Below are positions 39,653 to 56,882 of a stretch of 64,000 nucleotides of DNA, one piece after another. Location of the stretch: contig JAPOPW010000034.1 in assembly GCA_026712715.1 (NCBI GenBank), forward strand, positions 31,720 through 95,719, in the 5' to 3' direction. Source of the stretch: Immundisolibacterales bacterium. GTDB taxonomy: Bacteria; Pseudomonadota; Gammaproteobacteria; HK1. The notes under the pieces are model-generated. The model saw only the letters and a list, made by a program, of their open reading frames with translations. It was not told where the DNA came from and searched no databases. Positions within the stretch are counted from its first letter, which is position 1. Every line of letters starts with the position of its first letter. The position numbers and the translations under genes were made by a program.

Positions 39653-40684
39653 ATGTCACAGCCCCTGCCTTCCACCGCCAGACTGCTCGGCCTCGCGGCC
39701 GTGGTGTCCTTCGCCACCGCATGCGCCACCGTGCCCCCCGCCGCGAGTGCGCAGGGCAACGTCGGCACCAACATTCCCGTGCTCGTCATGAGCGAGGACG
39801 AGGATCCGAACACGGTCAAGCGATCCAGCGACATCTTCAAGCGGGTCATCGCCGAGCTCCAGGGCTCGATGCAGCGCCACGGCTTCCGGATGATCGACGA
39901 GGAATCGGTGGCGGCCGACCTGGGCTGGGAGATTTCCGACCGGCGTCCCAAGCGCGAGCTCATCGAGTCCATCAAGCTCATGGGCAAGAGCGGCAAGGCG
40001 TCGCACCAGGTGCGCGCCTGGGTGCTGTTCCGCATCCACGCGCAGGCCAAGCAGCTCTCCTTCGCGACCAAGGTGCAGACCCGCATCGACGGCGAGCTCT
40101 ACGACGCCGCTTCCAACCAGTTCCTCGACACCTTCGAGATGCCCCGGGAGGAATATCCGGCGCCGAAGGACTGCCTGGAGTCCTCGATCTGCATCAGCGA
40201 GGTGGTGGGCGACCGCGCACGCGAGATCGCGGGCGGCCTCGGCGAGGTGCTGGCCCGCAAGCTCGAGCGCTACTCCCCGCCGCGGGCGAGCGGCGCGGGG
40301 AGCGGAACCGCGGTCACCGGCGGCTCGGGCGGCGGAACCCACACCGGCGCGGGCCACGGCATGATGACCCCGTACACGGTGACCCTGCGCTACTTCGACG
40401 ATCGCGAGGCGCTCACCATCATCGGGGTGATGGCCGACGAATTCCCCGGCTACGAGACCCACGACCTCATCAACAAGTCCGCCACCGTCCGGCGCTACGA
40501 GTACCTCACCACCGCGAAGGCGATGAAGCTCGAGGAATGGCTGTTCATCCTGCTCCGCGACATGGGCTTCGACGAGACGCGCGAGATCCTCGTCCACGTG
40601 CAGGGCACCGACATCACGGTGGACAAGCTCATCCCGACCCCGCACCGCCCGGCGTCGCCGGACGAGAAGAAGCGCTTCAACTAG
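39653..40684 (+). CDS. Hypothetical lipoprotein (two domains joined by Gly/Ser-rich linker)
   Basis: This is the C-terminal 343 aa of track ORF 38972..40684. ATG 39653 is preceded by GAGAGGAA. It has a signal peptide with a lipobox-like FATA-C. It is divergent from paralog 1 and is followed by a strong terminator. I recognised no family. Confidence 0.7.
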   Translation: MSQPLPSTARLLGLAAVVSFATACATVPPAASAQGNVGTNIPVLVMSEDEDPNTVKRSSDIFKRVIAELQGSMQRHGFRMIDEESVAADLGWEISDRRPKRELIESIKLMGKSGKASHQVRAWVLFRIHAQAKQLSFATKVQTRIDGELYDAASNQFLDTFEMPREEYPAPKDCLESSICISEVVGDRAREIAGGLGEVLARKLERYSPPRASGAGSGTAVTGGSGGGTHTGAGHGMMTPYTVTLRYFDDREALTIIGVMADEFPGYETHDLINKSATVRRYEYLTTAKAMKLEEWLFILLRDMGFDETREILVHVQGTDITVDKLIPTPHRPASPDEKKRFN

Positions 40685-41064: not shown

Positions 41065-41600
41065 ATGCATGATTTCCACTTCCAGCGCCGGACGATCGTG
41101 AACTATATCGAGCGGTCCCTGGAGCCAATCCTCAGGCGAGCGGCAACCGAGTTTCCCGCGGTGGTGCTGACCGGGCCGCGCCAATCCGGGAAGACCGCCG
41201 TGCTGCGTCGCCTCTTCGGCGGTTCCCATCGTTACGTCTCCCTCGAACCGCCCGACGTGGGGGAGGCGGCGAGAGAGGATCCCTCGGCGGCGCCATCCTC
41301 GAGACTGCGGTCATCTCGGAGATCGTGAAGACTCTCACCCACCGGGCGATCGACCCGCAGGTGCATTTCTGGCGGACGCAGGCGGGAACGGAGGTGGACG
41401 TGGTGGTGGCGGCGCAAGGCAGGCTCGTGCCCGTCGAGGCCAAGCTCTCCGCAACGCCGCGGCCGGGCATGGCGGCCGCGATCCGGACGTTCAGGAAGGA
41501 TCTCGGGGCGGAGGCGTGGCCCGGATACGTGGTTCACCCGGGCGACGTCCGGCTGCCGCTGGGCGACGGCGCGACCGCGCTCCCGTTTGCGGACCTTTAG
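41065..41600 (+). pseudogene. AAA ATPase (DUF4143 family) with large internal deletion and frameshift
   Basis: Track ORFs 41065..41328 and 41325..41600 cover it. The N-terminal ~73 aa (FPAVVLTGPRQSGKTAVLRRLF...LEPPD...EDP) contain the Walker A. They join out of frame to the family C-terminus (AILETAVISEIVKTL...HFWRTQAGTEVDVVV...VEAKLSATP). About 250 central residues are missing. Confidence 0.7.
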
Positions 41601-41630
41601 CCCGCGGTCGGACGCGGGGCCGGGCAGGCG

Positions 41631-42419
41631 TCACTGGATGACGATGACGCCGCTCCCTCCCTTCTTGTCGTCCTCGTCCTCGTCTTCCGGCATGCGCTCC
41701 GGGGACCCGCCGCCCGGGACGCTGACGACGACGCCGTCGCCGCCGGCCCCGCCGCTCCCGCCCGACTGCGGTGGAGCCGGTGCCGGCGGTTCGGACGCCC
41801 CGGACGCAGCCCCGCCAGCCGGCTCATCGCCCGGCGCACGGTTCGCGGGCGGTTGAAAGGTGACGACCTCGACCCGCCGCTGGGCCGGATCGCCGTGGGG
41901 CAGGTCCTCGCGCGGGCGCTTCTCGCCGTGGCCCCGCACCTCGCGGAAACGGGTCTCGGCGATGGTGAAGTGCTCTCGCAGCCAGGCCGCGACCGCCTCG
42001 GCGCGCCGTTGGGAGAGCTTGCGGTTGAACTCGGCCGGCCCGCTCGAATCGGTGTGGCCGTACACCCCGATCGGTACCTGACCCAGCGCCTCCGAGACGA
42101 GCGCGGCGCCGAGCTCCCGGAGCTGGGCGACGGCGCTCTCGCCGAGCTCGGCCGAGTTCTTCCGGAACTCGACCCGGAGGTCGACGGAGCGGGTCTCGAG
42201 CGGGTCGCCGGTGATCGGGATGAGCTTGCCGACGAGGTCGTCTCGCCCCACCACCGGCACCGTGTCGCCCTCCTTCGGTGCGTCGCCGGCTGCCGCCGCG
42301 AGCGCGGGCAGCCCGCCGGCGAGGACGACGGTGAGCGCGAGCCCCGCCCGCGCCGCCGCTCTTGCGCGCGAACGGCGCCGCGGTCCGCGACGGGGGCCGG
42401 ATCGAGTGCGTGCCGCCAT
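41631..42419 (-). CDS. OmpA-family peptidoglycan-associated protein
   Basis: Track ORF 41631..42419. It has an Arg-rich signal region. The OmpA_C motifs are VEFRKNSAEL..., GHTDSSGPAEFNRKLSQRRAEAV and RRVEVV. The C-terminal tail is acidic and Gly-rich. Confidence 0.8.
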   Translation of the reverse strand: MAARTRSGPRRGPRRRSRARAAARAGLALTVVLAGGLPALAAAAGDAPKEGDTVPVVGRDDLVGKLIPITGDPLETRSVDLRVEFRKNSAELGESAVAQLRELGAALVSEALGQVPIGVYGHTDSSGPAEFNRKLSQRRAEAVAAWLREHFTIAETRFREVRGHGEKRPREDLPHGDPAQRRVEVVTFQPPANRAPGDEPAGGAASGASEPPAPAPPQSGGSGGAGGDGVVVSVPGGGSPERMPEDEDEDDKKGGSGVIVIQ

Positions 42420-42449
42420 GGTCGCTCCTCCTGCTACTGGGTGCGAGGG

Positions 42450-42911
42450 CTACTGAGCGCGCAGGACCGGCTGCGGCTCGGGCCGCCGCAGCTCGTGGTC
42501 CCGCTCGATGGACGCCACTTCGGGCATCTCGAGAAGGCGGGCGATGAGCTCACCGTCCGCGTCGAGGGCGATGACGGGGAAGAGGCTGAACGTGCGGACG
42601 GCGGCGAGCTCGCCGGCCGGCATGATCGCCGCGAGGCGCTCCATCACCCGCGCGGCGGCCCCCGTGCCCGAACCGTCCCCCACCGCGAGGTTTACGATGA
42701 TCGGCAGCTTCCCGGTCGCCGGCTGACCCGCCGCTTCCGCCGCGCGCACCGCCGCCTCCGGAGACTCCCCTTCCACTGCGGGGACCTGGCAGGCGGCGAG
42801 AAGGCCCGCGAGCAGCAGGCATGCCATCGCGTGCACCACCGCCCCGATCCCGGGAAGGCCCATGCGGCACCCGGCCTCCGGGCCGGCCGCTAACCGGTAA
42901 CGGGTTTCCAT
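42450..42911 (-). CDS. Lipoprotein resembling a stand-alone subtilase propeptide (inhibitor I9-like)
   Basis: This is part of track ORF 42450..43007, started at ATG 42911 (ATG 42863 is an alternative). The lipobox is LLAA-C. IIVNLA...VRTFSLFPVIALDADGELIARLLEMPEVASIERD follows the I9 propeptide pattern. It also parallels VTRRYENFPVLAMEMDRAALRAAKEYGGTVEVFDD in the N-terminus of the adjacent S8 protease. Confidence 0.55.
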   Translation of the reverse strand: METRYRLAAGPEAGCRMGLPGIGAVVHAMACLLLAGLLAACQVPAVEGESPEAAVRAAEAAGQPATGKLPIIVNLAVGDGSGTGAAARVMERLAAIMPAGELAAVRTFSLFPVIALDADGELIARLLEMPEVASIERDHELRRPEPQPVLRAQ

Positions 42912-43102
42912 CCCTTGCCATCCTCCGTCGGTGGGTCGGGCTGCGGCAGCGGGTCCGCCGGCGTCTGGGGCGCGCATCCGATGAGCAGGCCCGTGAGCAG
43001 CAGGCATGCGCCCAGGGCGGACCGCGCGCGCGCGCGGAGGGCGGGGGCGGGGGCGGGGGCGGGGCCTCTCGTCCCAGTCTCTAGCCGGTGATGGCCTTCC
43101 AT
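42890..43102 (-). CDS. Small Pro-rich lipoprotein (70 aa)
   Basis: Track ORF 42890..43102. The signal peptide is ...ALGACLLLTGLLIG-C (lipobox). The start overlaps the S8 gene end by 22 nt and the end overlaps the next gene start by 22 nt. Confidence 0.5.
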   Translation of the reverse strand: MEGHHRLETGTRGPAPAPAPALRARARSALGACLLLTGLLIGCAPQTPADPLPQPDPPTEDGKGWKPVTG

Positions 43103-44616
43103 TCTTTCTTCTCCTTTGCGGGTTCGGTACCTGGTCCCGGCGCGGGCTCCGGCTTGGGTCCGGGACTGCCGCCGGGCTTCGGCTCGAGGGTCAACTGCGG
43201 AACGGGCACCGCGGACGAGCCGGCCGCCGCGGGCCCGAGACGTTCGATGGCCGCGCCGACGTCGATCAGCCGGGCCGCCCGGCCGCCGCTTCGCCGGTCC
43301 GGGATCTGCGGACCGGTGCTCTCGAGCACCCGCAGCAGCTCCTCCACCGAGCTGTGGGGAGACGCCTGCTTCAGGACCGCGAAGGCGCCGGCGACGTGCG
43401 GAGCGGCCATGGACGTTCCCGGCCAGCTATCGAATCCACGCTCCAGCCGGCCTCCTCCCTCGTCCTTCACGACGGACGATTGGATGTCGACCCCGGGGGC
43501 CAGCAGGTCGAGGGTCGGTCCGCTGTTGGAGAAGGAGGCGACCTCCTTCCCCTTCGTGACCGCTCCAACGCTGACGAAGCCCTCGACGCAGGCAGGGAAT
43601 CCCACCGGCGCCGCCCGGTCTTCCTCGGAGTCGTTTCCGGACGCCACCACCACCGGGACCCCGACCTCCCGGAAGAGGCGCGATGCGAGGTCCCACACGC
43701 GCGACGGGCAGACCCCCGGCTCGTCGCGGGACGCACCCAGGCTCATGTTGACCGCTCCGATGACCCCCGGATAGCGCCGCGCGAGGGTGATGACGACGTC
43801 CAGCGCGGCGAGGATGTTCCGTCCGCTCATCCCGCGCCGGCTCCGGTTGGCGACACTGATGATGATGAGCCGAAGTTCCGGCCCGACCCCGGCGAGGTCC
43901 TCGTCCACCGCCCCCCCGAGGGCGATCCCGGCGACGTGGGTCCCGTGCGAGCCGGCCGGAAGGGCCGCGCCCGGGCCGATCATCTCGGGGCGGCCGTTCG
44001 GACAGACGTCGGCGAAGCAGGCCTCGAAGACGGTGCGGCCCGCGAGGAAGGGGTGGCGCGTGTCGGCACCGTCGTCGATGACCGCGACCGCGAGCCCCCG
44101 GCCGGCATAACCCCTCCTCCACGCCCGCGGCGCCCCCACGAGGCTCGCGCTCTCGTCGAGGAGCGGCTCGAGCACCGGGTCGTCGAAGACCTCTACGGTG
44201 CCGCCATACTCCTTCGCGGCCCGGAGCGCGGCCCGGTCCATCTCCATCGCGAGGACCGGGAAGTTCTCGTACCGCCGGGTGACCGCGACACGCGCGGACG
44301 TCCCTTCGAGGCGCTTCACGAACTCGTCGCCGGTGATCGCGACCAGCCCATTGCCGCGGCTCCCCCGGGCGGCCTCGTCGCCGGTGACGGGGCGCCACCC
44401 GGTGACGAGGGCCGACACCGTGCCATCGGACCCGGCGCTCCGAAGGAGCCGCTCGAAGTCGTCGGCGAGGGCGGGCGCCGACGACGGCAGGTGGGCGATG
44501 GCGACGACAAGGGCGGCGAGGAACGAGCGTCGGACGCGGGGACGCCATCGCCCGGCTCGGACCCTGGACTCTCCGGTGGAGGAAGCTCCCTTCGTCTTCG
44601 TCCCGTGCGCCATCAT
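43081..44616 (-). CDS. S8 family (subtilisin-like) serine peptidase, secreted
   Basis: Track ORF 43081..44766, started at ATGATG 44616, preceded by GGAGGAG. It has a signal peptide. The catalytic triad motifs are VAVIDDGAD (Asp), HGTHVAGIA (His) and GTSMAAPHVAG (Ser). Confidence 0.9.
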   Translation of the reverse strand: MMAHGTKTKGASSTGESRVRAGRWRPRVRRSFLAALVVAIAHLPSSAPALADDFERLLRSAGSDGTVSALVTGWRPVTGDEAARGSRGNGLVAITGDEFVKRLEGTSARVAVTRRYENFPVLAMEMDRAALRAAKEYGGTVEVFDDPVLEPLLDESASLVGAPRAWRRGYAGRGLAVAVIDDGADTRHPFLAGRTVFEACFADVCPNGRPEMIGPGAALPAGSHGTHVAGIALGGAVDEDLAGVGPELRLIIISVANRSRRGMSGRNILAALDVVITLARRYPGVIGAVNMSLGASRDEPGVCPSRVWDLASRLFREVGVPVVVASGNDSEEDRAAPVGFPACVEGFVSVGAVTKGKEVASFSNSGPTLDLLAPGVDIQSSVVKDEGGGRLERGFDSWPGTSMAAPHVAGAFAVLKQASPHSSVEELLRVLESTGPQIPDRRSGGRAARLIDVGAAIERLGPAAAGSSAVPVPQLTLEPKPGGSPGPKPEPAPGPGTEPAKEKKEWKAITG

Positions 44617-45067
44617 CCGGCGTCTCCTCCGTTCAACGTTCCGATTCGGTCCGGCCGCGGCCGACACACGGGTCAATGGAAGGTTCGGGAGCTCATTCTC
44701 GGAAGCCCGCCGTCGTGCCGCAAGCGAAGGGAGCTCCCCTGGAGGCCGCGAAGCGGTTTGCTCCACCGTCGTCCTCGCGAGAGGAGATGCCGGCGTGAAA
44801 CGACCGCTTCGTACTGAACCACGGTGCGTACCCGAAACTCGGAGCGCGCTTTACGCAGGGTGAAGGACAGCGGTGCAAGGACAGGTACCTTCGGGGCCCC
44901 GCTCACCGGACCCCGCAAGAACGGGGCAGGGAATCCTTGCAGCGGCCGGAGCGGCGGCGATGCGCGGGGATCCTTGAGGCAGTGAGCGTACGGGGCCGGA
45001 GTGCGACAAGTCCACCGGCGCCAAGCAATGGGCAATCGGATCCTCCATGAAAGGCAAGACTCGGGAG

Positions 45068-47287
45068 TCAATCCAGCGTCCTGGCGACTCGAAAACCGTT
45101 GAAGTGGTTCCGGTGCACGGAGCCGCTCCTGCCGCGAACCGCAGACCGAAGGCTCCCCGGCCTGCTGACCCACGAGCCGCCCCGCAACACACGGTAGTCG
45201 CAGTCACCGTCACCGTCGCGGGTCCACGCACCACCATCCGACGGCGCGCCCCGATAGCTGTCGTGCCAGCAGTCCTCCACCCACTCCCATACGTTTCCGT
45301 GAACGTCGCGAAGGCCGAACGCATTCGCGGTATGCGATCCCACCGGCTCCGTTCGCCCTCCGAAGCGCCCCGTGCGGCCGGAACCATACGCGAAGCTCCC
45401 GTTGTAGTTCGCCTGCTCGGGCGAGACTGTCGACCCGAAGTGGAACGGCGTCGTCGATCCCGCCCGCGCCGCATACTCCCACTCCGACTCGCTCAACAGC
45501 CGGTACTGCGCGTCCGTCTTCCGCGACAGCCAGCGCACGTACTCCCTGGCGTCGTGCCAGCTCACGTTCATGACCGGTCGATCGCCACGCCCCCATCCCT
45601 GATCGTCGGGATGGTGCGAACAACCACCGTCGCGACGGCATGCGTCCCACTCCCGGAACGTCACCTCGTGCACCCCCACCGCGAACGGCTGCGCGATGCT
45701 CACCAGGCGTACGGGACCTTCGTCATGAAAGCGGCCCTCTTCCCATGAGGGCGACCCCATCTCGAAGCTCCCCGCCGGCACCACCACCATCTTCGGACAG
45801 TCGTCGCACTCCCGGAGGTCTTGCCCTGCCGGCCATTTCGGCTTCGACACCTCGGCCAACCGGGTCCGGGCCTCTCCCTCGTGACGCCCCCCTCGCTCCA
45901 GGTACGCCCGATAGCTCGCCAGGGTGTTCAGCCGCCTCGCTTCCGCATACGCCTCGTCGTCCGCGCGCCGGTCCGCTTCTTCCTGCCGGCGTTTCATCGC
46001 GTACGCCTGCCCGTGCGCGACCAGGGCATCGCGGAGCTCCGCCGTCAGATGCCCCGTCTCCGGAAGGCCTTTCTCCTTCTGATAGCTCAGGATCCCGGCG
46101 CGGGTCCGGCGGCCGAACACCCCGTCCGCGCGACCGACGTCCTCGCCGAGCGACGTCAGCCCGTGCTGCACCAGCACCCGCTCCGCGAACGTGAGCCCAA
46201 GCGTCGCCTCCACCGACTCCGCCGTCTCGGCCGATGATGAAGGCGCTTCGATGGCGGCGGCGGTCTTCTTCTCCGGGCCGTCGTCCTTCGTCGGCACGGC
46301 GACGGTTTCCGCGGGCGCCTCGGAACCGGGCCGGGCCGGAAACGCCCCGCCGGCCGCCGCCGTCGCAAGCACCGCATCCTGCACCCCGATCAGACTCGCC
46401 TGCTGGACCCTCCGGTGCTGGCGCCGCGCCGCGCGCGTCATGTGGCGGTCGAGGTAGCGCTTCGCTTCCGCCGCGGTCACCTTTGCATCCCCATCCGCAT
46501 CGCCGCGCCCATGGAGCGCATCGAGGAGGTGGTGGGTGAAGAGGCCGTGGCGCGCGTTCTCGTCCCAGGACGCGATCTGCGTTCCGCTCGCGGCAGTGAG
46601 GGACGTCACCTTGTGCCCCACTCCCTCCGGCAGCGTTGCCTCCACGAACACCGGGCTCGCGTTGCGGATGAGGCCGCCTCCGTGGCTCCCGCCGGAGAAG
46701 CAGGCGTCGATGTACACCCGGACCGAGCCCGCCTCCGCGAGACCGCCCACGTTCCGGTAGAGGAGGTCGATGGGATAGCCGTCGTCTTCGGCCGCCCGCG
46801 GGTCCGCGTCCACCGGCAGGAGGTATCCTCGCCCGTCGTTCAACCCCGGCACCCCGTGCCCGGAGTAGAACACCACCACGTCCGAGCCTCCGTCCGGGTC
46901 GAGGTAGCTCCACAGGAGGCTGCGTGGATCGCTCTTCGTGCCGAGCGCGTCGAAGAGCTCTCTCCGCGTCGCGTCGCGAAGGTCGATGACGTTCACCGGG
47001 TCGAAGCCGAGCACGTCCACCACGTAGCGCCGGAGAGCGCCGGCGTCGCGGTGCGCGAACGTGACGTCCGGGACGTCGCGGTGCTCGTAGTTGGCATTGC
47101 CGATGATTACGGCCACTCCACGCGGATTCGCGAACTCCGCCCGCACCGGGGAAGGAGCCGCGAGGACCGAGATCGCAACGAGGAAGGCGAGCAGGCCGGC
47201 GCAACGGCGGCCGCGGGCTCCGGCGCGGGTCGCGCACGGGGCCGGTACGTTCGGCTCCGAAGGTACAGATCGCATCATTTTGAGCAT
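45068..47287 (-). CDS. Secreted caspase-like (C14) + peptidoglycan-binding + FGE-sulfatase domain protein, paralog 2
   Basis: Track ORF 45068..47341, started at ATG 47287, preceded by AAGGAGGG. The signal peptide ends ...PVRA/EFANP. It has FYSGHG (H144), IDACFSG (C196), the PG-binding module GRADGVFGRRTRAGILSYQ, and the FGE motifs MVVVPAGSFEMGS, HGNVWEWVEDCW and LRGGSW. Confidence 0.85.
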   Translation of the reverse strand: MLKMMRSVPSEPNVPAPCATRAGARGRRCAGLLAFLVAISVLAAPSPVRAEFANPRGVAVIIGNANYEHRDVPDVTFAHRDAGALRRYVVDVLGFDPVNVIDLRDATRRELFDALGTKSDPRSLLWSYLDPDGGSDVVVFYSGHGVPGLNDGRGYLLPVDADPRAAEDDGYPIDLLYRNVGGLAEAGSVRVYIDACFSGGSHGGGLIRNASPVFVEATLPEGVGHKVTSLTAASGTQIASWDENARHGLFTHHLLDALHGRGDADGDAKVTAAEAKRYLDRHMTRAARRQHRRVQQASLIGVQDAVLATAAAGGAFPARPGSEAPAETVAVPTKDDGPEKKTAAAIEAPSSSAETAESVEATLGLTFAERVLVQHGLTSLGEDVGRADGVFGRRTRAGILSYQKEKGLPETGHLTAELRDALVAHGQAYAMKRRQEEADRRADDEAYAEARRLNTLASYRAYLERGGRHEGEARTRLAEVSKPKWPAGQDLRECDDCPKMVVVPAGSFEMGSPSWEEGRFHDEGPVRLVSIAQPFAVGVHEVTFREWDACRRDGGCSHHPDDQGWGRGDRPVMNVSWHDAREYVRWLSRKTDAQYRLLSESEWEYAARAGSTTPFHFGSTVSPEQANYNGSFAYGSGRTGRFGGRTEPVGSHTANAFGLRDVHGNVWEWVEDCWHDSYRGAPSDGGAWTRDGDGDCDYRVLRGGSWVSRPGSLRSAVRGRSGSVHRNHFNGFRVARTLD

Positions 47288-50971: not shown

Positions 50972-51162
50972 GATGCCCCTCCCTGCAAGTTGCGGGCGCA
51001 ATCCAGTTTCGGCAACGAAAGGACGAGACCCCCAGCCTCGATGGACCGGCCCGCGCCGCGCCGGGGTTCGGACCGCGTGCACGACCGGGCAAAACGCGCC
51101 AGAACCTTCCATTGCGGGGTACGACTGGTACCGACCCGCAAGGCGGGGAAAGGAGCACTCTC

Positions 51163-52047
51163 ATGCAGCAGTCGAGCGGAACGGGGCGCGGCATCCGGCG
51201 CGCGGCCCTCGTCCTCGCGGCCGGGCTCGGCCCGGGCGCCGTCGTCCTTCCCCTGGCGGCCGGGGCCGCGATCTACGTCGATCCGGCAACCGCCGTCGTC
51301 GAGGACCGGGCCGCCGTCCAGCGGCTGGTCGTCGCGGAGGCGGTGCGAAACGGGGTGGTCCCCGCTCCCCTCGCCCTCGCAGTGGTCGAGGTCGAGTCGG
51401 AATTCGTCCCGCGGACGGTCGGCACGTCCGGTGCAATCGGACTCATGCAGATCCTCCCCGCCGTCGCGGAGCGCGAGTTCGCGGCCAATGCGGACGCGCT
51501 CTGGGAGCCGGTGACGAACCTTCGCATGGGCCTTGGCCGCCTCGCACGACTCCACGACCGCTACGACGGCGACTGGGAGCTCGCCCTCTCGCACTTCCGG
51601 GGCGGTGAGCTGCGGCGCGAAGCCGGGCGCTACGTCGCGCACGGCTACACGCTCGGCTACGTCGAGCGGGTGATGCGCGGCTGGCGGCGCTACCAGCGCG
51701 ACCCGCTCGTTCGGGCCTGGATCCGGGGGGCACGGGGAGTTCCGCGCTTCGTCGCGGCGGATGCGCTCCCTCGTTTCGAGACGCGGTCGGCCTTGGCAAC
51801 ACCGCCGATCCGGTGGGAGAGCGCGGCGGATTCAACCCGTCCGCGCCACCATCTTCGCGGCCATCACCACCGCCTCACCGATCGGTGCGACGAGACGCAC
51901 GCGGCGCGCCGGCCGGCCGGGTACCGCTTCGGCCGCAGCGGCGGAAGCGGCGGACGGTGGACGGCGATCGAAGGTGCGCCCTCCCCTGCTCTTCGCTTTC
52001 GCGACGGCCGGTGGGTGGCGGTCACCGGCGGCCCACGCTTCCGCTAG
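51163..52047 (+). CDS. Lytic transglycosylase (SLT domain) protein
   Basis: This lies in track ORF 51112..52047, starting at ATG 51163, preceded by AAAGGAG. It has a signal peptide. VVEVESEF (catalytic Glu) and SGAIGLMQI motifs are present. Confidence 0.8.
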   Translation: MQQSSGTGRGIRRAALVLAAGLGPGAVVLPLAAGAAIYVDPATAVVEDRAAVQRLVVAEAVRNGVVPAPLALAVVEVESEFVPRTVGTSGAIGLMQILPAVAEREFAANADALWEPVTNLRMGLGRLARLHDRYDGDWELALSHFRGGELRREAGRYVAHGYTLGYVERVMRGWRRYQRDPLVRAWIRGARGVPRFVAADALPRFETRSALATPPIRWESAADSTRPRHHLRGHHHRLTDRCDETHAARRPAGYRFGRSGGSGGRWTAIEGAPSPALRFRDGRWVAVTGGPRFR

Positions 52048-52556
52048 GCTCCTTGACGTGCCCCGATCCATAAAGATGATTCAAGTTTGCAAATCGGTTT
52101 CAGGAACCGAAACGTACGAGGCTGCTACCACTACCCAGCAGCCGGGTCTTGAACCAGGATGGGTGGCTTCGAACCGGTCTCGTCGTCCTGACGCGCAGCC
52201 TCGCTGGGATTCCGGGGCGCATCGTGTTCGATAGCTCGCTATTTCCGCGACCAGGCACGGTCGAGCTTGGGCAGGATGTCGGCCTCTCCCGCGGGCTCGT
52301 TCCGTCCGTGCCCCGGCACGAACACGGAAGGCGCGGCGGTGATGGTGCGCCCGAGAACCAGCGTCCCGGCGGCCGAGGAGACACTGCGCCGAGGCCGCCG
52401 GCGCTCGGTTGCCTCTTCCGGTTCGCGGCACGCCCCGAAGGCCCGGAGCGCGCCCTCGATGCGCGAATGCCCCTGCCGTTCGGTCACGGGGGCAATCTTT
52501 GCAGTGCGCGTGCGAGCGCTTATTCTCCGGCTTTCGGCGAGAGGCGGAGAGGGTGC

Positions 52557-54353
52557 ATGGGCGAGAGGGCCAGGGTCCGGCTCATCCGGGGCGCGCAGAG
52601 CGACGAGCTGCGCGCGACCTTCCGCCAGCTCGCCGAGCTCGACGGACCGAACGGTCCGAAATTCCCGCGACGGGTCCTCATGGAGCTTGCGGCCCGGATC
52701 GTGGGCCGGGCCTACGAGCCGATGCTGCTCGAGCTCTCCCACCTCGCGCGCGCCGCCCGGCTGGCAACGCAGGGGCTGCCGGGAGGGCGGCGCGGCGCGG
52801 ACGCAGGGGCCGGCTTCGAGTGGCTCTTCTGGGGCGTCGAGGAGGCACGGGCCGGTGCGTTCCGGGCCGCCTTCCTCGAATCGAACGGCACCTTCGCGAG
52901 CCCCGCCCCACCTCCGGCGACCCATGACGACGAGGGCCGGTCCGGCGCGGCGGGCGGCGCGCTCCGCATCGGGGAGGACGGCGTCATCCTCAGCTACCCG
53001 GACGGCCGGTTCGAGCTCCGGTACGGACGCATGGTGGACCTCGCCGCAATGATGGAGCTGCTCGTCTCCACCCTCGGCTACCGCGCGCTCGTCGATGTCC
53101 TCGATCCGCTCGCGGCGCCCGTCGTCGACCGCGGGACGGTCGCGGGAGCCGCCCGCGACCTCGCCCGCCGGTTCTACGAGTGGCTGGGCGGCCATCTCCC
53201 GACCGCCCAGGCGCAACGCAAGTTCCACGCGATGATCGCGTTCCTCGAAGAGTCGCTCGGGGCCGACTTCACGGACGAGGACATCGACGACGAGGCGGTC
53301 CTTCGCTTCTGGCTCCGCCAGGTTGCGCCCGCCGGCGGCGAGACGCCGGCGGGCGGCGCGGGCACCGACTTTCGCGGCTACCGCAACACCTTCCTCGCCT
53401 TCCTCGCCCTCGCCCGGGTGCTCGAGGAAGGGGCGGAGCGCGGGCGCTTCGAGCGGCACGTGTCGATCGGCTCCGACTTCGAGGCGGGGGAGATTGACCC
53501 TGCGGCCGAGTCCGCGGCAACGCCGGAGGGCGCGGCCGAGTTCGACCCCCTCGCGCTGCTCCAGGAGGAGCCGGCCGCCGTGATCAAGGCGCTCAACCAG
53601 CGCGAGCTCACCCTCCTCCGGCTCCCGGTCGGAGAAAACGACGGGGTGCGGCGCCTGCCCCGCTCGTACCTGCGGGCCGAGTGCTTCGGTCCGGTGCAGA
53701 ACCGCCTGTCGCAGGCGCTACGCCGCAAGGCGGGCGCGGCGGAGCTCGCGGCGGTGGTCGCGGCCGGGCCGGATCCGGGCTATCGCGCCCGGATCGAAGC
53801 ACTGAAGAAGGCCGACGTGCACGTGCGCCGGGTGGCCAGGGCGTGCCTCTTCGTCCTGCACCGGATGGGGGGCGACGCGGGCGGCGGCGGCGGCGAACGC
53901 GACCGCGGACGCGCGAAGACCGGCCCCGGCGAGGGAAGCGAGAGCGGCGTCGGGCCGGTGCTCGACTTCCGGCTTCTCGGGGAAGCCCGCAAGGCATTCG
54001 AAGGACTGAACCGCGCGGGCTTCGAGCGCTCCGCCCCGAGCGACCCCGAGCTCGCGCCCGCCTACGGCGCGCTCGCGGACACCTTGCCGTGCGTCGCCGA
54101 ACGTCTGGGGGCGGTCCTTCTCACCTTCGGTCCGCCGGACTCGTGGGAGCGCGCCGAGGCGGAGGATCGCGCGGTCTTCTCGCGCACCTTCGCCCGGCTC
54201 TACGGCGCGGCGACGAACGAGCCGCCGCCGGAACCGGACGGGGAGGCGCGAGGACGCGGTGGCGCTTGCAGCACGCGCGGCGACGGCGGACCGATCCGGT
54301 CGCCGCCCCCGCCGCGCACGAGCCCGGCACGACCGGCGGGAGGACGACCATGA
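52557..54353 (+). CDS. Hypothetical protein (598 aa), no recognisable domain
   Basis: This lies in track ORF 52149..54353, starting at ATG 52557, preceded by GGAGAGGG. It has coding-like GC3 bias and an acidic/helical composition. It is translationally coupled (ATGA) to the next gene. Confidence 0.6.
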   Translation: MGERARVRLIRGAQSDELRATFRQLAELDGPNGPKFPRRVLMELAARIVGRAYEPMLLELSHLARAARLATQGLPGGRRGADAGAGFEWLFWGVEEARAGAFRAAFLESNGTFASPAPPPATHDDEGRSGAAGGALRIGEDGVILSYPDGRFELRYGRMVDLAAMMELLVSTLGYRALVDVLDPLAAPVVDRGTVAGAARDLARRFYEWLGGHLPTAQAQRKFHAMIAFLEESLGADFTDEDIDDEAVLRFWLRQVAPAGGETPAGGAGTDFRGYRNTFLAFLALARVLEEGAERGRFERHVSIGSDFEAGEIDPAAESAATPEGAAEFDPLALLQEEPAAVIKALNQRELTLLRLPVGENDGVRRLPRSYLRAECFGPVQNRLSQALRRKAGAAELAAVVAAGPDPGYRARIEALKKADVHVRRVARACLFVLHRMGGDAGGGGGERDRGRAKTGPGEGSESGVGPVLDFRLLGEARKAFEGLNRAGFERSAPSDPELAPAYGALADTLPCVAERLGAVLLTFGPPDSWERAEAEDRAVFSRTFARLYGAATNEPPPEPDGEARGRGGACSTRGDGGPIRSPPPPRTSPARPAGGRP

Positions 54354-55093
54354 GCAGGCCGTGGAGCGCAAGGAGCGAGGCGGAACGAAAACGAATGGAG
54401 GCGGCGTTCGTGGCCCGCCACGGCGCCGAGATGCTGCTCGACGGCGATTCGGAGCCTCCGCCCGCGACCGGAGACGAGTTGCCGCCCGGAACGCTGCGTC
54501 CGGGCCGCCGACTTCCCTTCGCGCACCTCCACGCGTCCCTGCGCGGTGGCCGGCCGCTGCCGCCCGAGGTCTCGGCCGCGCTTCGATCGGACCCCGCGCT
54601 CCGCGACGACTTCGCGCTCCTCGTCCGCCGGAGCGCCCGCCAGCACCTGCCGCGCGCGGCCGCCGCGGCGGGGCGTGAAGGCATTCTCCGGCGCGAGGCG
54701 GGGGGGTTCGTCGTCCGCCTCGTCGCGTCGCGGGCCGGCCGCGACCAGGTCTACCTCCTCGTCGAGCTGCCCGAGGAGGTGGCCGCGGAGGCACAGGTGC
54801 GGGCAGGACCGGATGCAAACGGTTCCGGGCGCCAGCCGGCGGAGGTTCGGGCGGCTGACGACCGGATCGGCGGGGACCCCGCGCCCGACGCGGCGGGCGG
54901 AACGCCCCCGCCCGCCGCCCGACGCGCGGCGCCTGCCGCACCGGATCGGATGGTCGTGCGGACCGCGGACGGGGAATTCCTGAAGCAGGCCCTCCCGTCG
55001 CCCGAAGACCGCACCGTGCGACTCGTGATGGAGGCGGACGACCCGCTGATACGGGCGGTGGCCGAACCCGCGAGCGAGATCTATCTGCTGTGA
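54350..55093 (+). CDS. Hypothetical protein (247 aa)
   Basis: This lies in track ORF 53681..55093. ATG 54350 is preceded by GGGAGGA and overlaps the upstream TGA. I recognised no family. Confidence 0.55.
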   Translation: MSRPWSARSEAERKRMEAAFVARHGAEMLLDGDSEPPPATGDELPPGTLRPGRRLPFAHLHASLRGGRPLPPEVSAALRSDPALRDDFALLVRRSARQHLPRAAAAAGREGILRREAGGFVVRLVASRAGRDQVYLLVELPEEVAAEAQVRAGPDANGSGRQPAEVRAADDRIGGDPAPDAAGGTPPPAARRAAPAAPDRMVVRTADGEFLKQALPSPEDRTVRLVMEADDPLIRAVAEPASEIYLL

Positions 55094-55259
55094 GGGCCGC
55101 CGGCGAGACGACACTCCGCCGCCGCGGCGGACGGGACGCCGCGGTGCGCGAGTCCGGGCCGCGCGAGGCCGGCCGGAGTCCGCCTGCCGGATTCGGGGTG
55201 CCGCGGGGCACGGCCCCGCGCCGCTCTTCCGTCCGCCGCCGCCGCGAACGAAGCCGCGC

Positions 55260-56882
55260 GTGAACCGGATCCGGGTGTTCATCGCGACCACGGAGGGGCC
55301 GGTTGCGGTGCAGAAGATTACCGCCGAGGACCCGGACGTTCCGTCCGTCGCCTGCCGCGACGGCACCACCGAGGTCCTCGCGATCTCACGCGACTACACC
55401 CGCTTCGTCGAGCGGGGCACCGGCCTGGTGGCGGCGCTCACCGGCCACGGCGCGTACCGCCTGGATCTGGACCGGCCGGTGGACGGCGGGCGGAGCTGGC
55501 AGCTACCGGTGCTGCTGGCCCACCTCCTCGAGGCCGAGGGGCGCCTCGCGGGGCCGGACGAGCCCGCCGACCTCGCGCTCCTCGCGACCGGGGAGGTCGA
55601 CCGCGATCAGCGGGTGCGGCGGGGCGGCCGGATCCCCGAGAAGCTCGCCGCCGCGAACGACCTCGTCACCCGGCACCGGCAAGCCGGCCCGCCCCTGGTG
55701 GTGCTGGTGCCGGCGGCGGATCGGACACCCGCGATCGATGCGGCGCCGCCGGCGCCGGGCGGCGACTTCGAAGGCATGGTGTCGGTGCTCGCCTGGGAGC
55801 GGGTCATGGGTCTCACCGACCTCGAGGCGGCGCCGGCGGGCCGGTTGGCACCGCATGCGGGACGGGCGCCGGGCGATGCCCCGGACCCGCAAGCGGGCGC
55901 GGGCGGAGGCGCATCACGCGCCGTCCCGAAAGACGCCGCCCGGCGGGCGGCGGAGAGCGGCACGGGCAACGGCTCGCATCGCGGCCCCACCGGCGACTCC
56001 GGGGACGTGGACGCTCCCCCGCGCCGGCCCGCGAATCCGTCCACGCCGTCACGAGAGCACGCCGCCGCCGAACCGGACCCGGATCCGGTTCCGGCCCCGC
56101 CGGGCGGAGCGGCCGCCGCACGCCCCCGGCGCCGGACGGGGCGGACGGCCACCGCGATCCTTCTCGTCGCGGCAGTGGCGGGGGCAGCGTCCGGAGCCGC
56201 CTGGTGGAACGGCCCGCGGGACTGGGAGATGCTGCGTCGCGCGGGAGACTACGAGGGTCTCGAACGCGCCCTCCGGCAGTCCGTCGTCGCTCCCCTGGCC
56301 GATCGGTACCGGTCCGGACTCCTCGCCGGCGCGCCCGCCCCGGAGAGCCTCGTCTTCAGCCTCGTGGAGCAACGGACGGCGGACGGGCAGCCCTGCGATC
56401 CGGGCGGCTTCCGCGACGCGGACCGCACGGAGCGCGCCCGCCTGGCGGGGACCCCCATGCCCCCCCTCAGGCCGGGGTTCTTTCGCTCCGAGGGGGGCGC
56501 GAGCCTCTGCCGGGCGGTGTATCGCGTCGCCAACGAGGGCGAGCGGCTGGTCTACGTCTACTTCGCGGTCCGGCCGTCGCTCTCGTCGGCGGCCGGCAAG
56601 GCGGAGGCTCCGGCGGTCCGGCGCGCTGCCGCCCTCCCCCCCGGCGCGAGCCTCGCTCTCGACCTCGACCTCGACCTCCGGCTCTTTCGGGACCGGATTC
56701 TCGGTGCCGACCTGCTGGTCCTCGCCGCCCCCAGCCCGTCCCCACAGATTCGCCACGCATTCGAGCTCGCGTCGGAGGCCGGCGCGGGGAGCCGTGCACG
56801 GGGGGCGGCTCCGCTCGATCTCACCGCACTGCCCGCGCTCGGCCTCACCGTCAAGGGGGCGAGCCACGCCATCCTGCGGTAG
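55260..56882 (+). CDS. Membrane protein with N-terminal Lon-protease-like (S16 fold) domain, one TM helix and a C-terminal extracytoplasmic domain
   Basis: Track ORF 55260..56882 (GTG start). PVDGGRSWQLPVLLAHLL...LLATGEVDRDQRVRRGGRIPEKLAAAN...VVLVPAAD parallels Lon_C (DGPSAGIA...AMTGEITLRGxVLPIGGLKEKLLAAHR...VLIPxxN). The TM helix is TATAILLVAAVAGAASGAAWW, around aa 300. Confidence 0.55.
   Translation: MNRIRVFIATTEGPVAVQKITAEDPDVPSVACRDGTTEVLAISRDYTRFVERGTGLVAALTGHGAYRLDLDRPVDGGRSWQLPVLLAHLLEAEGRLAGPDEPADLALLATGEVDRDQRVRRGGRIPEKLAAANDLVTRHRQAGPPLVVLVPAADRTPAIDAAPPAPGGDFEGMVSVLAWERVMGLTDLEAAPAGRLAPHAGRAPGDAPDPQAGAGGGASRAVPKDAARRAAESGTGNGSHRGPTGDSGDVDAPPRRPANPSTPSREHAAAEPDPDPVPAPPGGAAAARPRRRTGRTATAILLVAAVAGAASGAAWWNGPRDWEMLRRAGDYEGLERALRQSVVAPLADRYRSGLLAGAPAPESLVFSLVEQRTADGQPCDPGGFRDADRTERARLAGTPMPPLRPGFFRSEGGASLCRAVYRVANEGERLVYVYFAVRPSLSSAAGKAEAPAVRRAAALPPGASLALDLDLDLRLFRDRILGADLLVLAAPSPSPQIRHAFELASEAGAGSRARGAAPLDLTALPALGLTVKGASHAILR

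What the first reader, a model, noticed from the sequence alone, without database searches (positions are those of the whole stretch)
41631..44616. S8 protease operon with a stand-alone propeptide-like lipoprotein, a mini-lipoprotein and an OmpA-like protein
Four co-directional, overlapping or closely spaced genes make up this unit: the subtilase (44616-43081), a 70-aa Pro-rich lipoprotein, a lipoprotein and an OmpA-family protein.

The third gene's mature part follows the inhibitor-I9 / subtilase propeptide pattern (VRTFSLFPVIALDADGELIARLLEMPEVASIERD). It also parallels the protease's own N-terminal pro-region.

A membrane-tethered, trans-encoded propeptide homologue could act as an inhibitor, an immunity factor or a folding chaperone for the secreted protease. 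This is an unusual arrangement, and it sits in the middle of the caspase paralog array.
Basis: partly seen in the sequence, partly recalled or inferred. Interest (0 to 1): 0.6.

Follow-up and report, generated by a model that had tools for sequence, protein, structure and literature searches.

The report
Subtilase operon with free prodomain lipoprotein
A conserved four-gene operon in an uncultured gammaproteobacterium encodes a subtilisin-type protease, a membrane-anchored free-standing copy of a protease prodomain (probably its inhibitor), a tiny lipoprotein carrying a copy of the protease's tail, and a cell-wall-binding protein.

Summary
Four co-directional genes lie on the minus strand, with 22-nt, 22-nt overlaps and a 30-nt gap:
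- a pro-subtilase (43081-44616);
- a 70-aa Pro-rich lipoprotein (42890-43102);
- a 153-aa lipoprotein (42450-42911);
- a periplasmic OmpA_C-like protein (41631-42419).

The third protein scores below the Pfam I9 threshold. [quoted passage not shown] The protease has its own I9-like prodomain, so this lipoprotein is a second, trans-encoded copy. Inhibition is inferred, not shown. The complex prediction gave no verdict.

The cassette recurs in the same 5 of 61 related genomes and in distant metagenomic lineages.

New here:
- The protease, the mini-lipoprotein and a nearby lytic transglycosylase share a near-C-terminal W-x-x-[IV]-T-G tail. The tail is conserved in all 101 protease relatives examined and echoes an invariant motif in the prodomain.
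- The mini-lipoprotein looks like a retained duplication of the protease/I9 gene junction.
- The cassette belongs to a larger conserved envelope island.

This scan has already found free I9-like lipoproteins beside subtilases on other DNA.

The parts
43081..44616 (-). Pro-subtilase, 511 aa. Signal peptide residues 1-51 (44464-44616). I9-like prodomain about residues 65-153 (within 44158-44463). Catalytic domain about 154-462 (43231-44157). Pro/Lys/Glu-rich linker and tail 463-511 (43084-43230).
   Evidence: Pfam Peptidase_S8 at 149.8 bits. D181, H224, S402 and N328 are invariant in 101 relatives. The AF2 model has pLDDT 82. It superposes on unautoprocessed pro-subtilisin E and pro-Tk-subtilisin from residue 65, at Z 41-43.
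44380..44397 (-). Internal motif W-R-P-V-T-G (residues 74-79; preceded by Gly73, followed by Asp80) at the end of prodomain strand beta1.
   Evidence: G73, W74, T78 and G79 are invariant. GWx[AP][IV]TG[DE] is present in all 101 aligned relatives.
43084..43101 (-). C-terminal tail W-K-A-I-T-G of the protease. It overlaps the start of the mini-lipoprotein gene.
   Evidence: In 101 of 101 relatives the last Trp lies 4-6 residues from the C-terminus and W+3 is Ile or Val. Codon changes are synonymous in this frame and non-synonymous in the overlapping frame.
42890..43102 (-). Mini-lipoprotein, 70 aa. Signal peptide with lipobox LLIGC (Cys43), then a 27-residue Pro-rich mature peptide ending G-W-K-P-V-T-G (tail at 42893-42910).
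   Evidence: Present with lipobox and tail in G001, G004, G026, G034, L017 and L020. No Pfam family. Its 5' half resembles the 5' end of the I9-like gene (z 8.2) and its 3' half resembles the 3' end of the protease gene (z 3.6).
42450..42911 (-). Free-standing I9/propeptide-fold lipoprotein, 153 aa. Lipobox LLAAC (Cys41). I9-like domain about residues 66-141 (42489-42716). Keeps the E136-R-D138-H motif.
   Evidence: [quoted passage not shown] The top Foldseek PDB matches are all subtilisin propeptides. The family profile hits the N-terminal propeptide regions of real S8 proteins. 42 of 78 family members hit Pfam I9 at E <= 0.1, and two pass the cut-off.
41631..42419 (-). Periplasmic OmpA_C-like peptidoglycan-binding protein, 262 aa. 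Signal peptide without a lipobox. OmpA domain at residues 85-172 (41904-42167). Low-complexity linker, then a conserved C-terminal G-x-[IV]-V-I-[EQD].
   Evidence: Pfam OmpA at 51.8 bits. The motif TDSSGPAEFNRKLSQRRA can be read directly. Orthologues follow the I9-like gene in L012-L015, L017 and L020. A natural OmpA-like::S8 fusion, P0266, exists.
51112..52047 (+). Associated gene: a lytic transglycosylase (SLT) whose C-terminus, W-V-A-V-T-G-G-P-R-F-R, carries the same tail motif (52012-52029).
   Evidence: Pfam SLT at 59.2 bits. The motif was found by the six-frame scan. SLT orthologues in L016, L017 and L023 end WTPITGDRFR, WVAVTGTARFR and WVPITGERFR.
39692..40684 (+). Associated gene: a two-domain lipoprotein of unknown family that co-occurs with the cassette. 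It has a conserved C-terminal [KR]-R-F-x.
   Evidence: Homologues lie next to the cassette in L012, L013, L015, L016, L023, L024, L025 and L027. In L016 and L023 its C-terminal domain sits in the lipoprotein that takes the mini-lipoprotein's place. No Pfam hit.

Best explanation
This is a translationally coupled, envelope-located protease-control cassette.

**Proposed sequence of events.**
1. The subtilase is exported with its own I9-type prodomain. That prodomain folds and transiently blocks it, as in classical subtilisins.
2. A second I9-fold protein is encoded two genes downstream and is lipid-anchored. It binds the mature catalytic domain the way a cleaved propeptide does: its beta-sheet packs on the two surface helices, and its ExDH motif caps them.
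3. This keeps the active enzyme inhibited, tethered at the membrane, or both.
4. The OmpA_C-like protein ties the module to peptidoglycan.
5. The protease's flexible C-terminal W-x-x-[IV]-T-G tail is a short docking peptide. The mini-lipoprotein is a lipid-anchored copy of that tail, created by duplication of the protease/I9 gene junction. It either competes for, or co-occupies, the same still unidentified docking site.

**Shown.** The genes, the folds, the catalytic residues, the conservation of the cassette, and the conservation of the motifs.

**Inferred.** Binding, inhibition, the location of each protein, and the role of the tail.

**What the confidence covers.** The figure given is for the inhibitor/tether reading as a whole. 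That the third protein is an I9-fold homologue I hold at about 0.9.
For: **The third protein is I9-like.**
- The first eleven Foldseek PDB rows are all Tk-subtilisin propeptide or pro-form chains, and most of the first 27 rows are subtilase propeptides or pro-forms. Examples are 2z57_B (probability 1.00) and 1scj_B (TM 0.67).
- The only consistent sequence-profile matches in the PDB are Tk-subtilisin propeptides. They align MPEV..IERDHE to MPEVEKVEFDHQ.
- The family profile reaches the region just N-terminal of the S8 domain in six unrelated subtilases.
- Two family members pass the Pfam I9 cut-off.
- E136 and D138 are nearly invariant. They correspond to the helix-capping Glu69/Asp71 of the subtilisin BPN' propeptide, as described in PMC6993865.

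**The protease is an intact pro-subtilase**.

**The two genes travel together.**
- Exactly the same 5 of 61 related genomes hold both genes.
- S8 is directly followed by an I9-like lipoprotein in the distant loci L024, L025, L026 and L027.

**The tail is selected at the protein level.**
- It is conserved in 101 of 101 relatives.
- Codon changes are synonymous only in the tail frame.
- Only these two ORFs in the 5.06-Mb genome end in it.
- Tail endings co-vary between protease and lipoprotein: ITG/VTG, ITGG/ITGG, ITE/ITD.

**Link to peptidoglycan.** A natural OmpA-like::S8 fusion exists.
Against: - No binding or inhibition data exist.
- The window protein itself is below the Pfam I9 threshold (14.3-14.7 bits against 21.2).
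- The protease already has a cis prodomain, so a second inhibitor is not strictly needed.
- The residues that follow ExDH, which should enter the active-site cleft, are not conserved.
- The G034 orthologue lacks the lipobox Cys, so lipid anchoring is not universal.
- The AF2 model leaves the tail unplaced, with pLDDT below 50.
- No receptor for the tail has been identified.
- Co-transcription was not tested. The promoter and terminator scans found nothing either way.
Confidence: 0.6

Rival explanations
1. The I9-fold lipoprotein is a non-inhibitory adaptor. It uses the propeptide fold as a docking platform that gathers the tail-bearing proteins (protease, mini-lipoprotein, lytic transglycosylase) at the membrane. 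The W-x-x-[IV]-T-G tail would supply in trans the element that the protease's own prodomain carries after strand beta1 and that the lipoprotein lacks.
For: - The cis prodomain has an invariant GWx[AP][IV]TG[DE] after beta1. The free I9-like protein has no such motif at that position.
- In L026 the tail is kept although S8 and the I9-like gene are the only neighbours shared with the window's core cassette. This narrows the linked receptor candidates to those two proteins.
- The tail also occurs on SLT, which is not a protease.
Against: - There is no direct evidence of tail-to-I9 contact.
- The ExDH capping motif and the overall likeness to inhibitory propeptides argue for classical binding to the catalytic domain.
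- The idea is built on motif logic alone.
Confidence: 0.15
2. The lipoprotein is a trans-acting folding chaperone (an intermolecular foldase). The protease would need it to reach its native state after export, and it would not act as a lasting inhibitor.
For: - I9 propeptides are intramolecular chaperones and can act in trans in vitro (established knowledge on subtilisin E and BPN').
- The tight translational coupling would give matched amounts of the two proteins.
Against: - The protease keeps a complete, well-predicted cis prodomain docked as in pro-subtilisins, which should be enough for folding.
- All stand-alone I9-type proteins characterised so far act as inhibitors (PMC6993865).
Confidence: 0.1
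3. The small ORFs are not functional genes. On this view the mini-lipoprotein is a by-product of a junction duplication, and the I9-like ORF is a decaying duplicate of a prodomain.
For: - The mini-lipoprotein is absent from the more distant loci L024-L027.
- It has no Pfam family.
- Its composition is low-complexity.
Against: - The mini-lipoprotein keeps its start, lipobox and tail across two genera at 38-59% identity.
- The I9-like family has about 90 representatives at 50% identity, with a conserved core.
- The I9-like gene co-occurs perfectly with the protease in the 61 genomes searched.
Confidence: 0.03

Closest known systems
Stand-alone subtilisin-propeptide-like inhibitors of MEROPS family I9 and their mimics: Pleurotus POIA1, yeast PBI2, Arabidopsis SPI-1, Toxoplasma MIC5, Plasmodium SUB1-ProM (PMC6993865)
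   Same: [quoted passage not shown]
- The acidic helix-capping motif is kept.
- Like SUB1-ProM, it is encoded next to its presumed target subtilase, and the target keeps its own prodomain.
   Different: - All characterised examples are eukaryotic and soluble.
- This one is bacterial and lipid-anchored.
- It is translationally coupled in an operon with a peptidoglycan-binding protein and a tail-mimic lipoprotein.
- Inhibition is untested here.
Cis propeptides of bacterial and archaeal subtilisins (subtilisin E/BPN', Tk-subtilisin; PDB 1scj, 2z57, 2e1p, 3whi)
   Same: - They are the best structural and sequence matches of the lipoprotein domain.
- The protease's own N-terminal region superposes on them.
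   Different: - The lipoprotein is not part of the protease chain.
- It has a lipoprotein signal peptide.
- Its C-terminal extension is non-conserved and runs beyond the position where a propeptide is cleaved.
Free I9-like lipoprotein plus subtilase pairs noted by this scan in other prokaryotic genomes (e1-5110011, e1-5043442, e1-719292, e1-5126143, e1-4569097)
   Same: A lipoprotein copy of a subtilase prodomain is encoded beside the protease and is read as a tethered inhibitor.
   Different: - Those notes describe the copy as lying mostly upstream of the protease.
- As far as their short texts show, they do not mention the shared C-terminal tail, a tail-only mini-lipoprotein, or the caspase/SLT/Lon-like island.
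- I did not compare the sequences.
Treponema denticola dentilisin complex (PrtP subtilase with the PrcA and PrcB lipoproteins; PMC8167434)
   Same: A subtilase that works in the cell envelope as part of an operon-encoded lipoprotein complex.
   Different: - The NCBIfam PrtP model scores only 51.9 bits against a 300-bit cut-off.
- I know of no I9-like partner or tail motif in that system.

Membership tests
Peptidase S8 (subtilases), protease gene 43081-44616 | Match to Pfam PF00082 above the gathering score | tested here: met
   149.8 bits against a 21.8-bit cut-off, residues 222-485 of the long ORF.
Peptidase S8 (subtilases), protease gene 43081-44616 | Catalytic Asp-His-Ser in that order, plus the oxyanion Asn | tested here: met
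   D181 (VIDDG), H224 (HGTHVAG), S402 (GTSMAAP) and N328 are invariant in the 101-sequence alignment.
Peptidase S8 (subtilases), protease gene 43081-44616 | N-terminal I9-type prodomain docked on the catalytic domain | tested here: met
   Model residues 65-153 superpose on the propeptide of unautoprocessed pro-subtilisin E (Z 43.0, rmsd 2.3, 341 aligned) and pro-Tk-subtilisin (Z about 41). Pfam I9 does not detect this region by sequence.
Inhibitor_I9 / subtilase propeptide superfamily, lipoprotein 42450-42911 | Match to Pfam PF05922 above the gathering score (21.2 bits) | tested here: inconclusive
   The window protein scores 14.3-14.7 bits, E 0.05-0.07, below the cut-off. Close family members P0009 (25.6 bits) and P0101 (22.5 bits) pass. 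42 of 78 members hit I9 at E <= 0.1 and no other family recurs.
Inhibitor_I9 / subtilase propeptide superfamily, lipoprotein 42450-42911 | [quoted passage not shown] | tested here: met
   Strands 69-75, 106-108, 113-118 and 132-137; helices 82-96 and 120-127; pLDDT 81-93. The top Foldseek rows are Tk-subtilisin and subtilisin propeptides, with TM by target 0.57-0.68. The E-values are weak (2e-3 and above) because the domain is small.
Inhibitor_I9 / subtilase propeptide superfamily, lipoprotein 42450-42911 | Sequence homology to propeptides that are part of real subtilases | tested here: met
   The profile of five orthologues matches the segment just before the S8 domain in P0125, P0132, P0138, P0140, P0142 and P0146, at whole-library E 1.5e-5 to 8e-4.
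Inhibitor_I9 / subtilase propeptide superfamily, lipoprotein 42450-42911 | Acidic helix-capping pair in the last strand (Glu69/Asp71 of the BPN' propeptide) | tested here: met
   E136-R-D138-H aligns to VEFDH of the Tk propeptide. E136 and D138 are at least 90% conserved in 78 sequences. The role of these residues is taken from PMC6993865.
Inhibitor_I9 / subtilase propeptide superfamily, lipoprotein 42450-42911 | Binds and inhibits a subtilase | not testable with these tools
   This needs biochemistry.
Bacterial lipoproteins (both small genes) | Signal peptide ending in a lipobox [LVI][ASTVI][GAS]C | tested here: met
   LLIGC (Cys43) and LLAAC (Cys41) can be read directly. The lipobox is kept in 5 of 5 mini-lipoprotein orthologues and 4 of 5 I9-like orthologues; G034 lacks the Cys. 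No predictor was run.
OmpA C-terminal-like peptidoglycan-binding domain, gene 41631-42419 | Pfam PF00691 above the gathering score, plus the TDxxGxxxxNxxLSxxRA motif | tested here: met
   51.8 bits against 27.2. TDSSGPAEFNRKLSQRRA is present. There is no OmpA beta-barrel and no lipobox, so this is a soluble periplasmic OmpA_C-like protein, not OmpA, Pal or YiaD proper. All NCBIfam hits are far below their cut-offs.
Mycosin (T7SS subtilase, TIGR03921) and dentilisin PrtP (NF033595) | Score above the NCBIfam curated cut-off | tested here: not met
   Mycosin scores 105.4 bits against 278.75. PrtP scores 51.9 against 300.

The most novel reading that the evidence does not exclude
The W-x-x-[IV]-T-G tail, together with a second tail [KR]-R-F-x, is a previously undescribed C-terminal docking code. 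It would assemble a periplasmic machine made of the subtilase, a lytic transglycosylase and several lipoproteins, inside a conserved envelope island that also holds an inner-membrane Lon-like trio, a DUF4384 protein and orthocaspase-FGE proteins. The mini-lipoprotein would be a purpose-built tail decoy or anchor, born from a gene-junction duplication, that regulates this assembly.
Probability: 0.3. Interest if true: 0.75.

Novelty: new variant of a known kind. Interest (0 to 1): 0.55.

Why it matters
**Bacterial counterpart of a eukaryotic control mechanism.** Stand-alone propeptide-like inhibitors are an established way of restraining subtilases in fungi, plants and apicomplexan parasites. 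I found no bacterial counterpart described in the papers I could search. A lipid-anchored, operon-encoded version would show how Gram-negative bacteria keep a broad-specificity protease safe and positioned inside their own envelope.

**A testable short linear motif.** The shared C-terminal tail gives a concrete handle on a larger uncharacterised gene island (orthocaspases, DUF4384, Lon-like trio, SLT). The island recurs in MAGs labelled as Gammaproteobacteria, Acidobacteria, Spirochaetia and Polarisedimenticolaceae.

**A clean case of gene birth.** The mini-lipoprotein appears to have arisen by duplication of an overlapping gene junction.

Tried and rejected
**Complex prediction.** I ran the protease catalytic domain (residues 156-480) with the I9-like domain (residues 62-153). 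The complex scored 0.84, 0.84 and 0.82, but one unrelated control partner scored 0.72. The tool's verdict is "no answer". It is not used for or against binding.

**Comparison of the lipoprotein with the protease's own pro-region.**
- hhalign of the lipoprotein family against the pro-region was not significant: probability 0.2, with only 20 columns aligned around VRTF..FP.IAL / VTRRY.NFPVLAM.
- Pfam I9 gave no hit on the cis pro-region.

**Promoter and terminator scans** of 41300-45200 found nothing. This is uninformative in 70% GC DNA.

**A Tat signal for the protease.** The window protein has RRSFL, but the orthologues do not keep a twin arginine. I read it as an ordinary signal peptide ending ALA|DD.

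**The tail as a general sorting signal.** Rejected for this genome: only the two operon ORFs end in W..[IV]T[GS].

**The tail as an artefact of selection on the overlapping start codon or N-terminus.** Rejected: substitutions are synonymous in the tail frame and change residues in the other frame. The tail is also kept in L024 and L025, where the 22-nt overlap is absent: a 4-nt overlap in L024 and a short gap in L025.

**A defence-system assignment.** PADLOC gave only generic subtilase, caspase and MotB-like domain hits.

**A DGR in this genome.** tblastn with the L024 reverse transcriptase and bAvd found nothing.

**The search for related loci with the 78-sequence alignment** failed because no stretch was conserved enough. 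It was repeated with the five-sequence alignment.

**Cleavage site of the cis prodomain.** It could not be fixed from the models. It lies somewhere in the low-confidence linker at residues 147-156.


Full report
**1. The observation**

The window has about 70% GC. On the minus strand between 41631 and 44616 lie four ORFs with high third-position GC.

- **Protease.** It is best started at ATG 44616, with GGAGGAG 8 nt upstream, giving 511 aa.
- **Mini-lipoprotein.** It starts at ATG 43102, inside the protease's last codons (AAGGAG 9 nt upstream), and is 70 aa long.
- **Third gene.** I start it at ATG 42911 (METRYRL..., GGAGGA 10 nt upstream). That ATG sits in the same position within the mini-lipoprotein's last codons. 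The product is 153 aa.
- **OmpA-like gene.** Its ATG is at 42419 and the product is 262 aa.

The spacings are therefore -22, -22 and +30 nt. Pfam confirms Peptidase_S8 (1.3e-43) and OmpA (1.1e-13). The flanking genes are Peptidase_C14 + PG_binding_1 + FGE-sulfatase proteins. A weak DUF4384 protein lies upstream.

**2. What the third protein is**

Five orthologues were aligned and used for three tests.

- **AlphaFold2.** It predicts a signal/lipobox helix, a disordered spacer, and then strand 69-75, helix 82-96, strands 106-108 and 113-118, helix 120-127 and strand 132-137. pLDDT is 81-93 over this domain. This is the propeptide topology.
- **Foldseek against the PDB.** Subtilase propeptides or pro-forms fill nearly all of the first rows: Tk-subtilisin propeptide with probability 0.98-1.00, subtilisin E/BPN' propeptides 1scj_B and 3cnq_P with TM 0.67-0.68 by target. 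E-values are modest (2e-3 and above), as expected for a 70-residue domain.
- **HMM profile against 1.84 billion representatives.** It finds 90 proteins. The strong ones are small proteins of the same family. The weak end (E 1.5e-5 to 8e-4) contains six large proteins in which the matched stretch ends just before a Peptidase_S8 domain, so it is their propeptide.

Further support:

- Two family members pass the Pfam I9 gathering score. 42 of 78 members hit I9 at E <= 0.1, and no other family recurs.
- The profile's only consistent PDB sequence matches are Tk-subtilisin propeptides. They align MPEV.SIERDHE with MPEVEKVEFDHQ.
- E136 and D138 are at least 90% conserved. They correspond to the Glu/Asp pair that caps the two surface helices of subtilisin in propeptide complexes (PMC6993865).

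I conclude with high confidence that this is a free-standing I9-fold protein. It carries a lipobox (LLAAC) in four of the five orthologues.

**3. The protease**

In an alignment of 101 relatives the catalytic D181, H224, S402 and the oxyanion N328 are invariant.

The AF2 model has pLDDT 82. It superposes best on unautoprocessed pro-subtilisins from residue 65 onward: 3whi_A with Z 43.0, and pro-Tk-subtilisin with Z about 41. Mature subtilisins align only from residue 154.

So the enzyme has its own complete I9-like prodomain, although Pfam does not see it by sequence. The lipoprotein is therefore a second, trans-encoded prodomain homologue, not a replacement for a missing one. The sequence likeness between the two is weak. 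Of the two, the lipoprotein is closer to canonical I9.

**4. Conservation**

- Among 61 genomes (own plus 60 relatives), the I9-like gene and the protease orthologue are found in exactly the same five: G000, G001, G004, G026 and G034. This is a patchy, accessory-like distribution.
- In all four relatives the order protease, mini-lipoprotein, I9-like, OmpA-like is kept, with the same overlaps.
- Record titles name these relatives as MAGs of Gammaproteobacteria and Ectothiorhodospiraceae. The cassette also appears in MAGs labelled Acidobacteria and Spirochaetia. That could reflect gene transfer or binning error.
- In more distant loci (L024, L025, L026, L027) the S8 gene is followed directly by an I9-like lipoprotein, without a mini-lipoprotein.
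- In L016 and L023 the middle gene is a 190-aa lipoprotein. It has a domain borrowed from the 330-aa lipoprotein family, then a Pro-rich linker and the tail.
- In L027 the OmpA-like protein is fused to the N-terminus of the pro-protease: P0266, 45% identical to the window's OmpA-like protein, E 2e-38. This Rosetta-stone fusion argues that the peptidoglycan-binding protein and the protease work together.

**5. The tail motif**

- The protease ends E-W-K-A-I-T-G and the mini-lipoprotein ends G-W-K-P-V-T-G.
- The protease prodomain contains G-W-R-P-V-T-G-D after strand beta1.
- These are the only three W[KR]x[VI]TG matches in all six frames of the window.
- The two C-terminal copies are the only ORFs in the 5.06-Mb genome that end this way.

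Across 101 protease relatives (43-87% identical to the window's protease) the last Trp always lies 4-6 residues from the C-terminus, W+3 is always Ile or Val, and W+2 is small. The internal GWx[AP][IV]TG[DE] is also present in all 101.

At the overlapping junctions, codon differences are synonymous in the tail frame (Gly as GGC, GGG, GGT and GGA; Ile as ATC and ATT). The same differences change residues in the frame of the downstream gene's N-terminus. Selection therefore acts on the tail peptide.

Tail endings co-vary between the protease and its lipoprotein partner: ITG with VTG or ITG, ITGG with ITGG, and ITE with ITD.

A looser scan showed that the window's SLT lytic transglycosylase (51112-52047, Pfam 3.7e-16) ends W-V-A-V-T-G-G-P-R-F-R. 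Its orthologues in L016, L017 and L023 end the same way.

The tail lies after a Pro/Lys/Glu-rich linker, and AF2 does not place it (pLDDT below 50). I read it as a short linear docking motif whose receptor is unknown. The internal copy in the prodomain suggests that the tail and the prodomain segment may use the same site at different times. That is speculation.

**6. Origin of the mini-lipoprotein**

- Its first 130 nt align to the 5' end of the I9-like gene (z 8.2 against shuffles), including a nearly identical stretch over the lipobox.
- Its 3' end aligns to the 3' end of the protease gene (z 3.6 for DNA, 4.2 for protein).
- In L026 the I9-like gene itself starts inside the protease's W codon, with the same 22-nt overlap (MECNYRL within WNVITG-stop).

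The simplest history is a tandem duplication of the protease/I9 junction. It created an ORF made of the I9 gene's start, signal peptide and lipobox, fused to the protease's linker and tail. The ORF's retention with lipobox and tail intact across two genera at 38-59% identity argues that it is functional: a lipid-anchored copy of the protease's tail.

My data confirm and extend that note.

**7. Wider context**

The following are single-copy in the genome and all lie within 36.8-56.9 kb of the window:
- the cassette itself;
- the 330-aa lipoprotein (39692-40684);
- the DUF4384 protein;
- SLT;
- the three-gene Lon-like operon at about 52.1-56.9 kb, already examined as e1-3874825.

Homologues of two members of the Lon-like trio (the first and third genes) sit directly upstream of the S8-I9 pair in L026 and of SLT-S8-I9 in L027 (an SLT gene is identified only in L027). 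The cassette is therefore one module of a conserved envelope island. PADLOC recognises no known defence system in it.

**8. Mechanism and rivals**

*Best-supported reading.* The lipoprotein is a membrane-tethered, propeptide-like inhibitor or holder of the mature subtilase. The OmpA-like protein links the module to peptidoglycan. The tails mediate docking.

*Shown.* Folds, residues, gene linkage and motif conservation.

*Inferred.* Binding, inhibition, location and tail function. By the enterobacterial +2 rule both lipoproteins, with Ala or Gln after the Cys, would go to the outer membrane, but that rule may not hold in this organism.

*Rivals.*
- A non-inhibitory adaptor that binds the tails.
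- A trans foldase.
- Non-functional ORFs, which conservation largely excludes.

The one complex prediction allowed gave no verdict and is not used as evidence.

**9. Novelty**

Stand-alone I9-type inhibitors are known from eukaryotes only in the literature I could search. This scan has already reported free I9-like lipoproteins beside subtilases in at least seven other prokaryotic genomes. That element is therefore a further member of a recurrent, unstudied bacterial module.

What this locus adds is the shared tail motif, the tail-only lipoprotein born from a junction duplication, the OmpA-like partner with its natural fusion, and the embedding in the orthocaspase/SLT/Lon-like island. I rate it a new variant of a known kind, of moderate interest.

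Noticed in passing
window 51112-52047 (+), tail at 52012-52044: The SLT lytic transglycosylase ends W-V-A-V-T-G-G-P-R-F-R. This joins the protease-type W-x-x-V-T-G motif to an R-F-R ending. Orthologues in L016, L017 and L023 end the same way.
   Followed up: partly
window 39692-40684 (+); L012, L013, L016, L023, L024, L025: The 330-aa two-domain lipoprotein has no Pfam family. An ESM Atlas lead to DUF6175 scores 0.92. It always ends in [DE]-x-[KR]-R-F-x. In L016 and L023 its C-terminal domain alone is reused in the lipoprotein that takes the mini-lipoprotein's place.
   Followed up: partly
window 41631-42419 (-): The OmpA-like protein has two further conserved short motifs: L-I-P-I-T-G-D-P just after the signal peptide, and a C-terminal G-G-[IY]-[IV]-V-I-[EQD] after an acidic low-complexity linker. 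Both are kept in all orthologues seen.
   Followed up: no
L027 5001-7022 (protein P0266): A natural fusion joins the OmpA-like protein to the N-terminus of the pro-subtilase. It is followed by an I9-like gene and preceded by SLT and the Lon-like trio.
   Followed up: partly
L024 11208-12891; contig: Diversity-generating retroelement genes (reverse transcriptase plus bAvd) lie next to caspase-FGE or FGE-sulfatase genes in two distant loci that carry the protease. The FGE-sulfatase domains may be DGR targets there. No such RT was found in this genome by tblastn.
   Followed up: partly
window 52080-56882 (+) versus L026 2280-5859 and L027 617-4089: Homologues of two genes (first and third) of the three-gene Lon-like operon of the window lie directly upstream of the S8-I9 pair in L026 and of SLT-S8-I9 in L027, two distant lineages. 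The operon and the protease cassette therefore belong to one conserved island.
   Followed up: partly
L015 9139-9669 (G034): The I9-like orthologue of G034 has a signal peptide but no lipobox cysteine (LLLAAAGAAFSS). Lipid anchoring is therefore not universal in the family.
   Followed up: no
L020 and L023: Nearly the same cassette occurs in MAGs labelled Acidobacteria and Spirochaetia. The L020 copy is very close to the gammaproteobacterial L013. This could be horizontal transfer or mis-binning.
   Followed up: no
L024 7518-7907: The I9-like lipoprotein of L024 ends at ...EADRTLAPL, six residues after the conserved Asp. That is where a cleaved subtilisin propeptide would end, with Leu at P1. 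It looks like a pre-cleaved propeptide.
   Followed up: no
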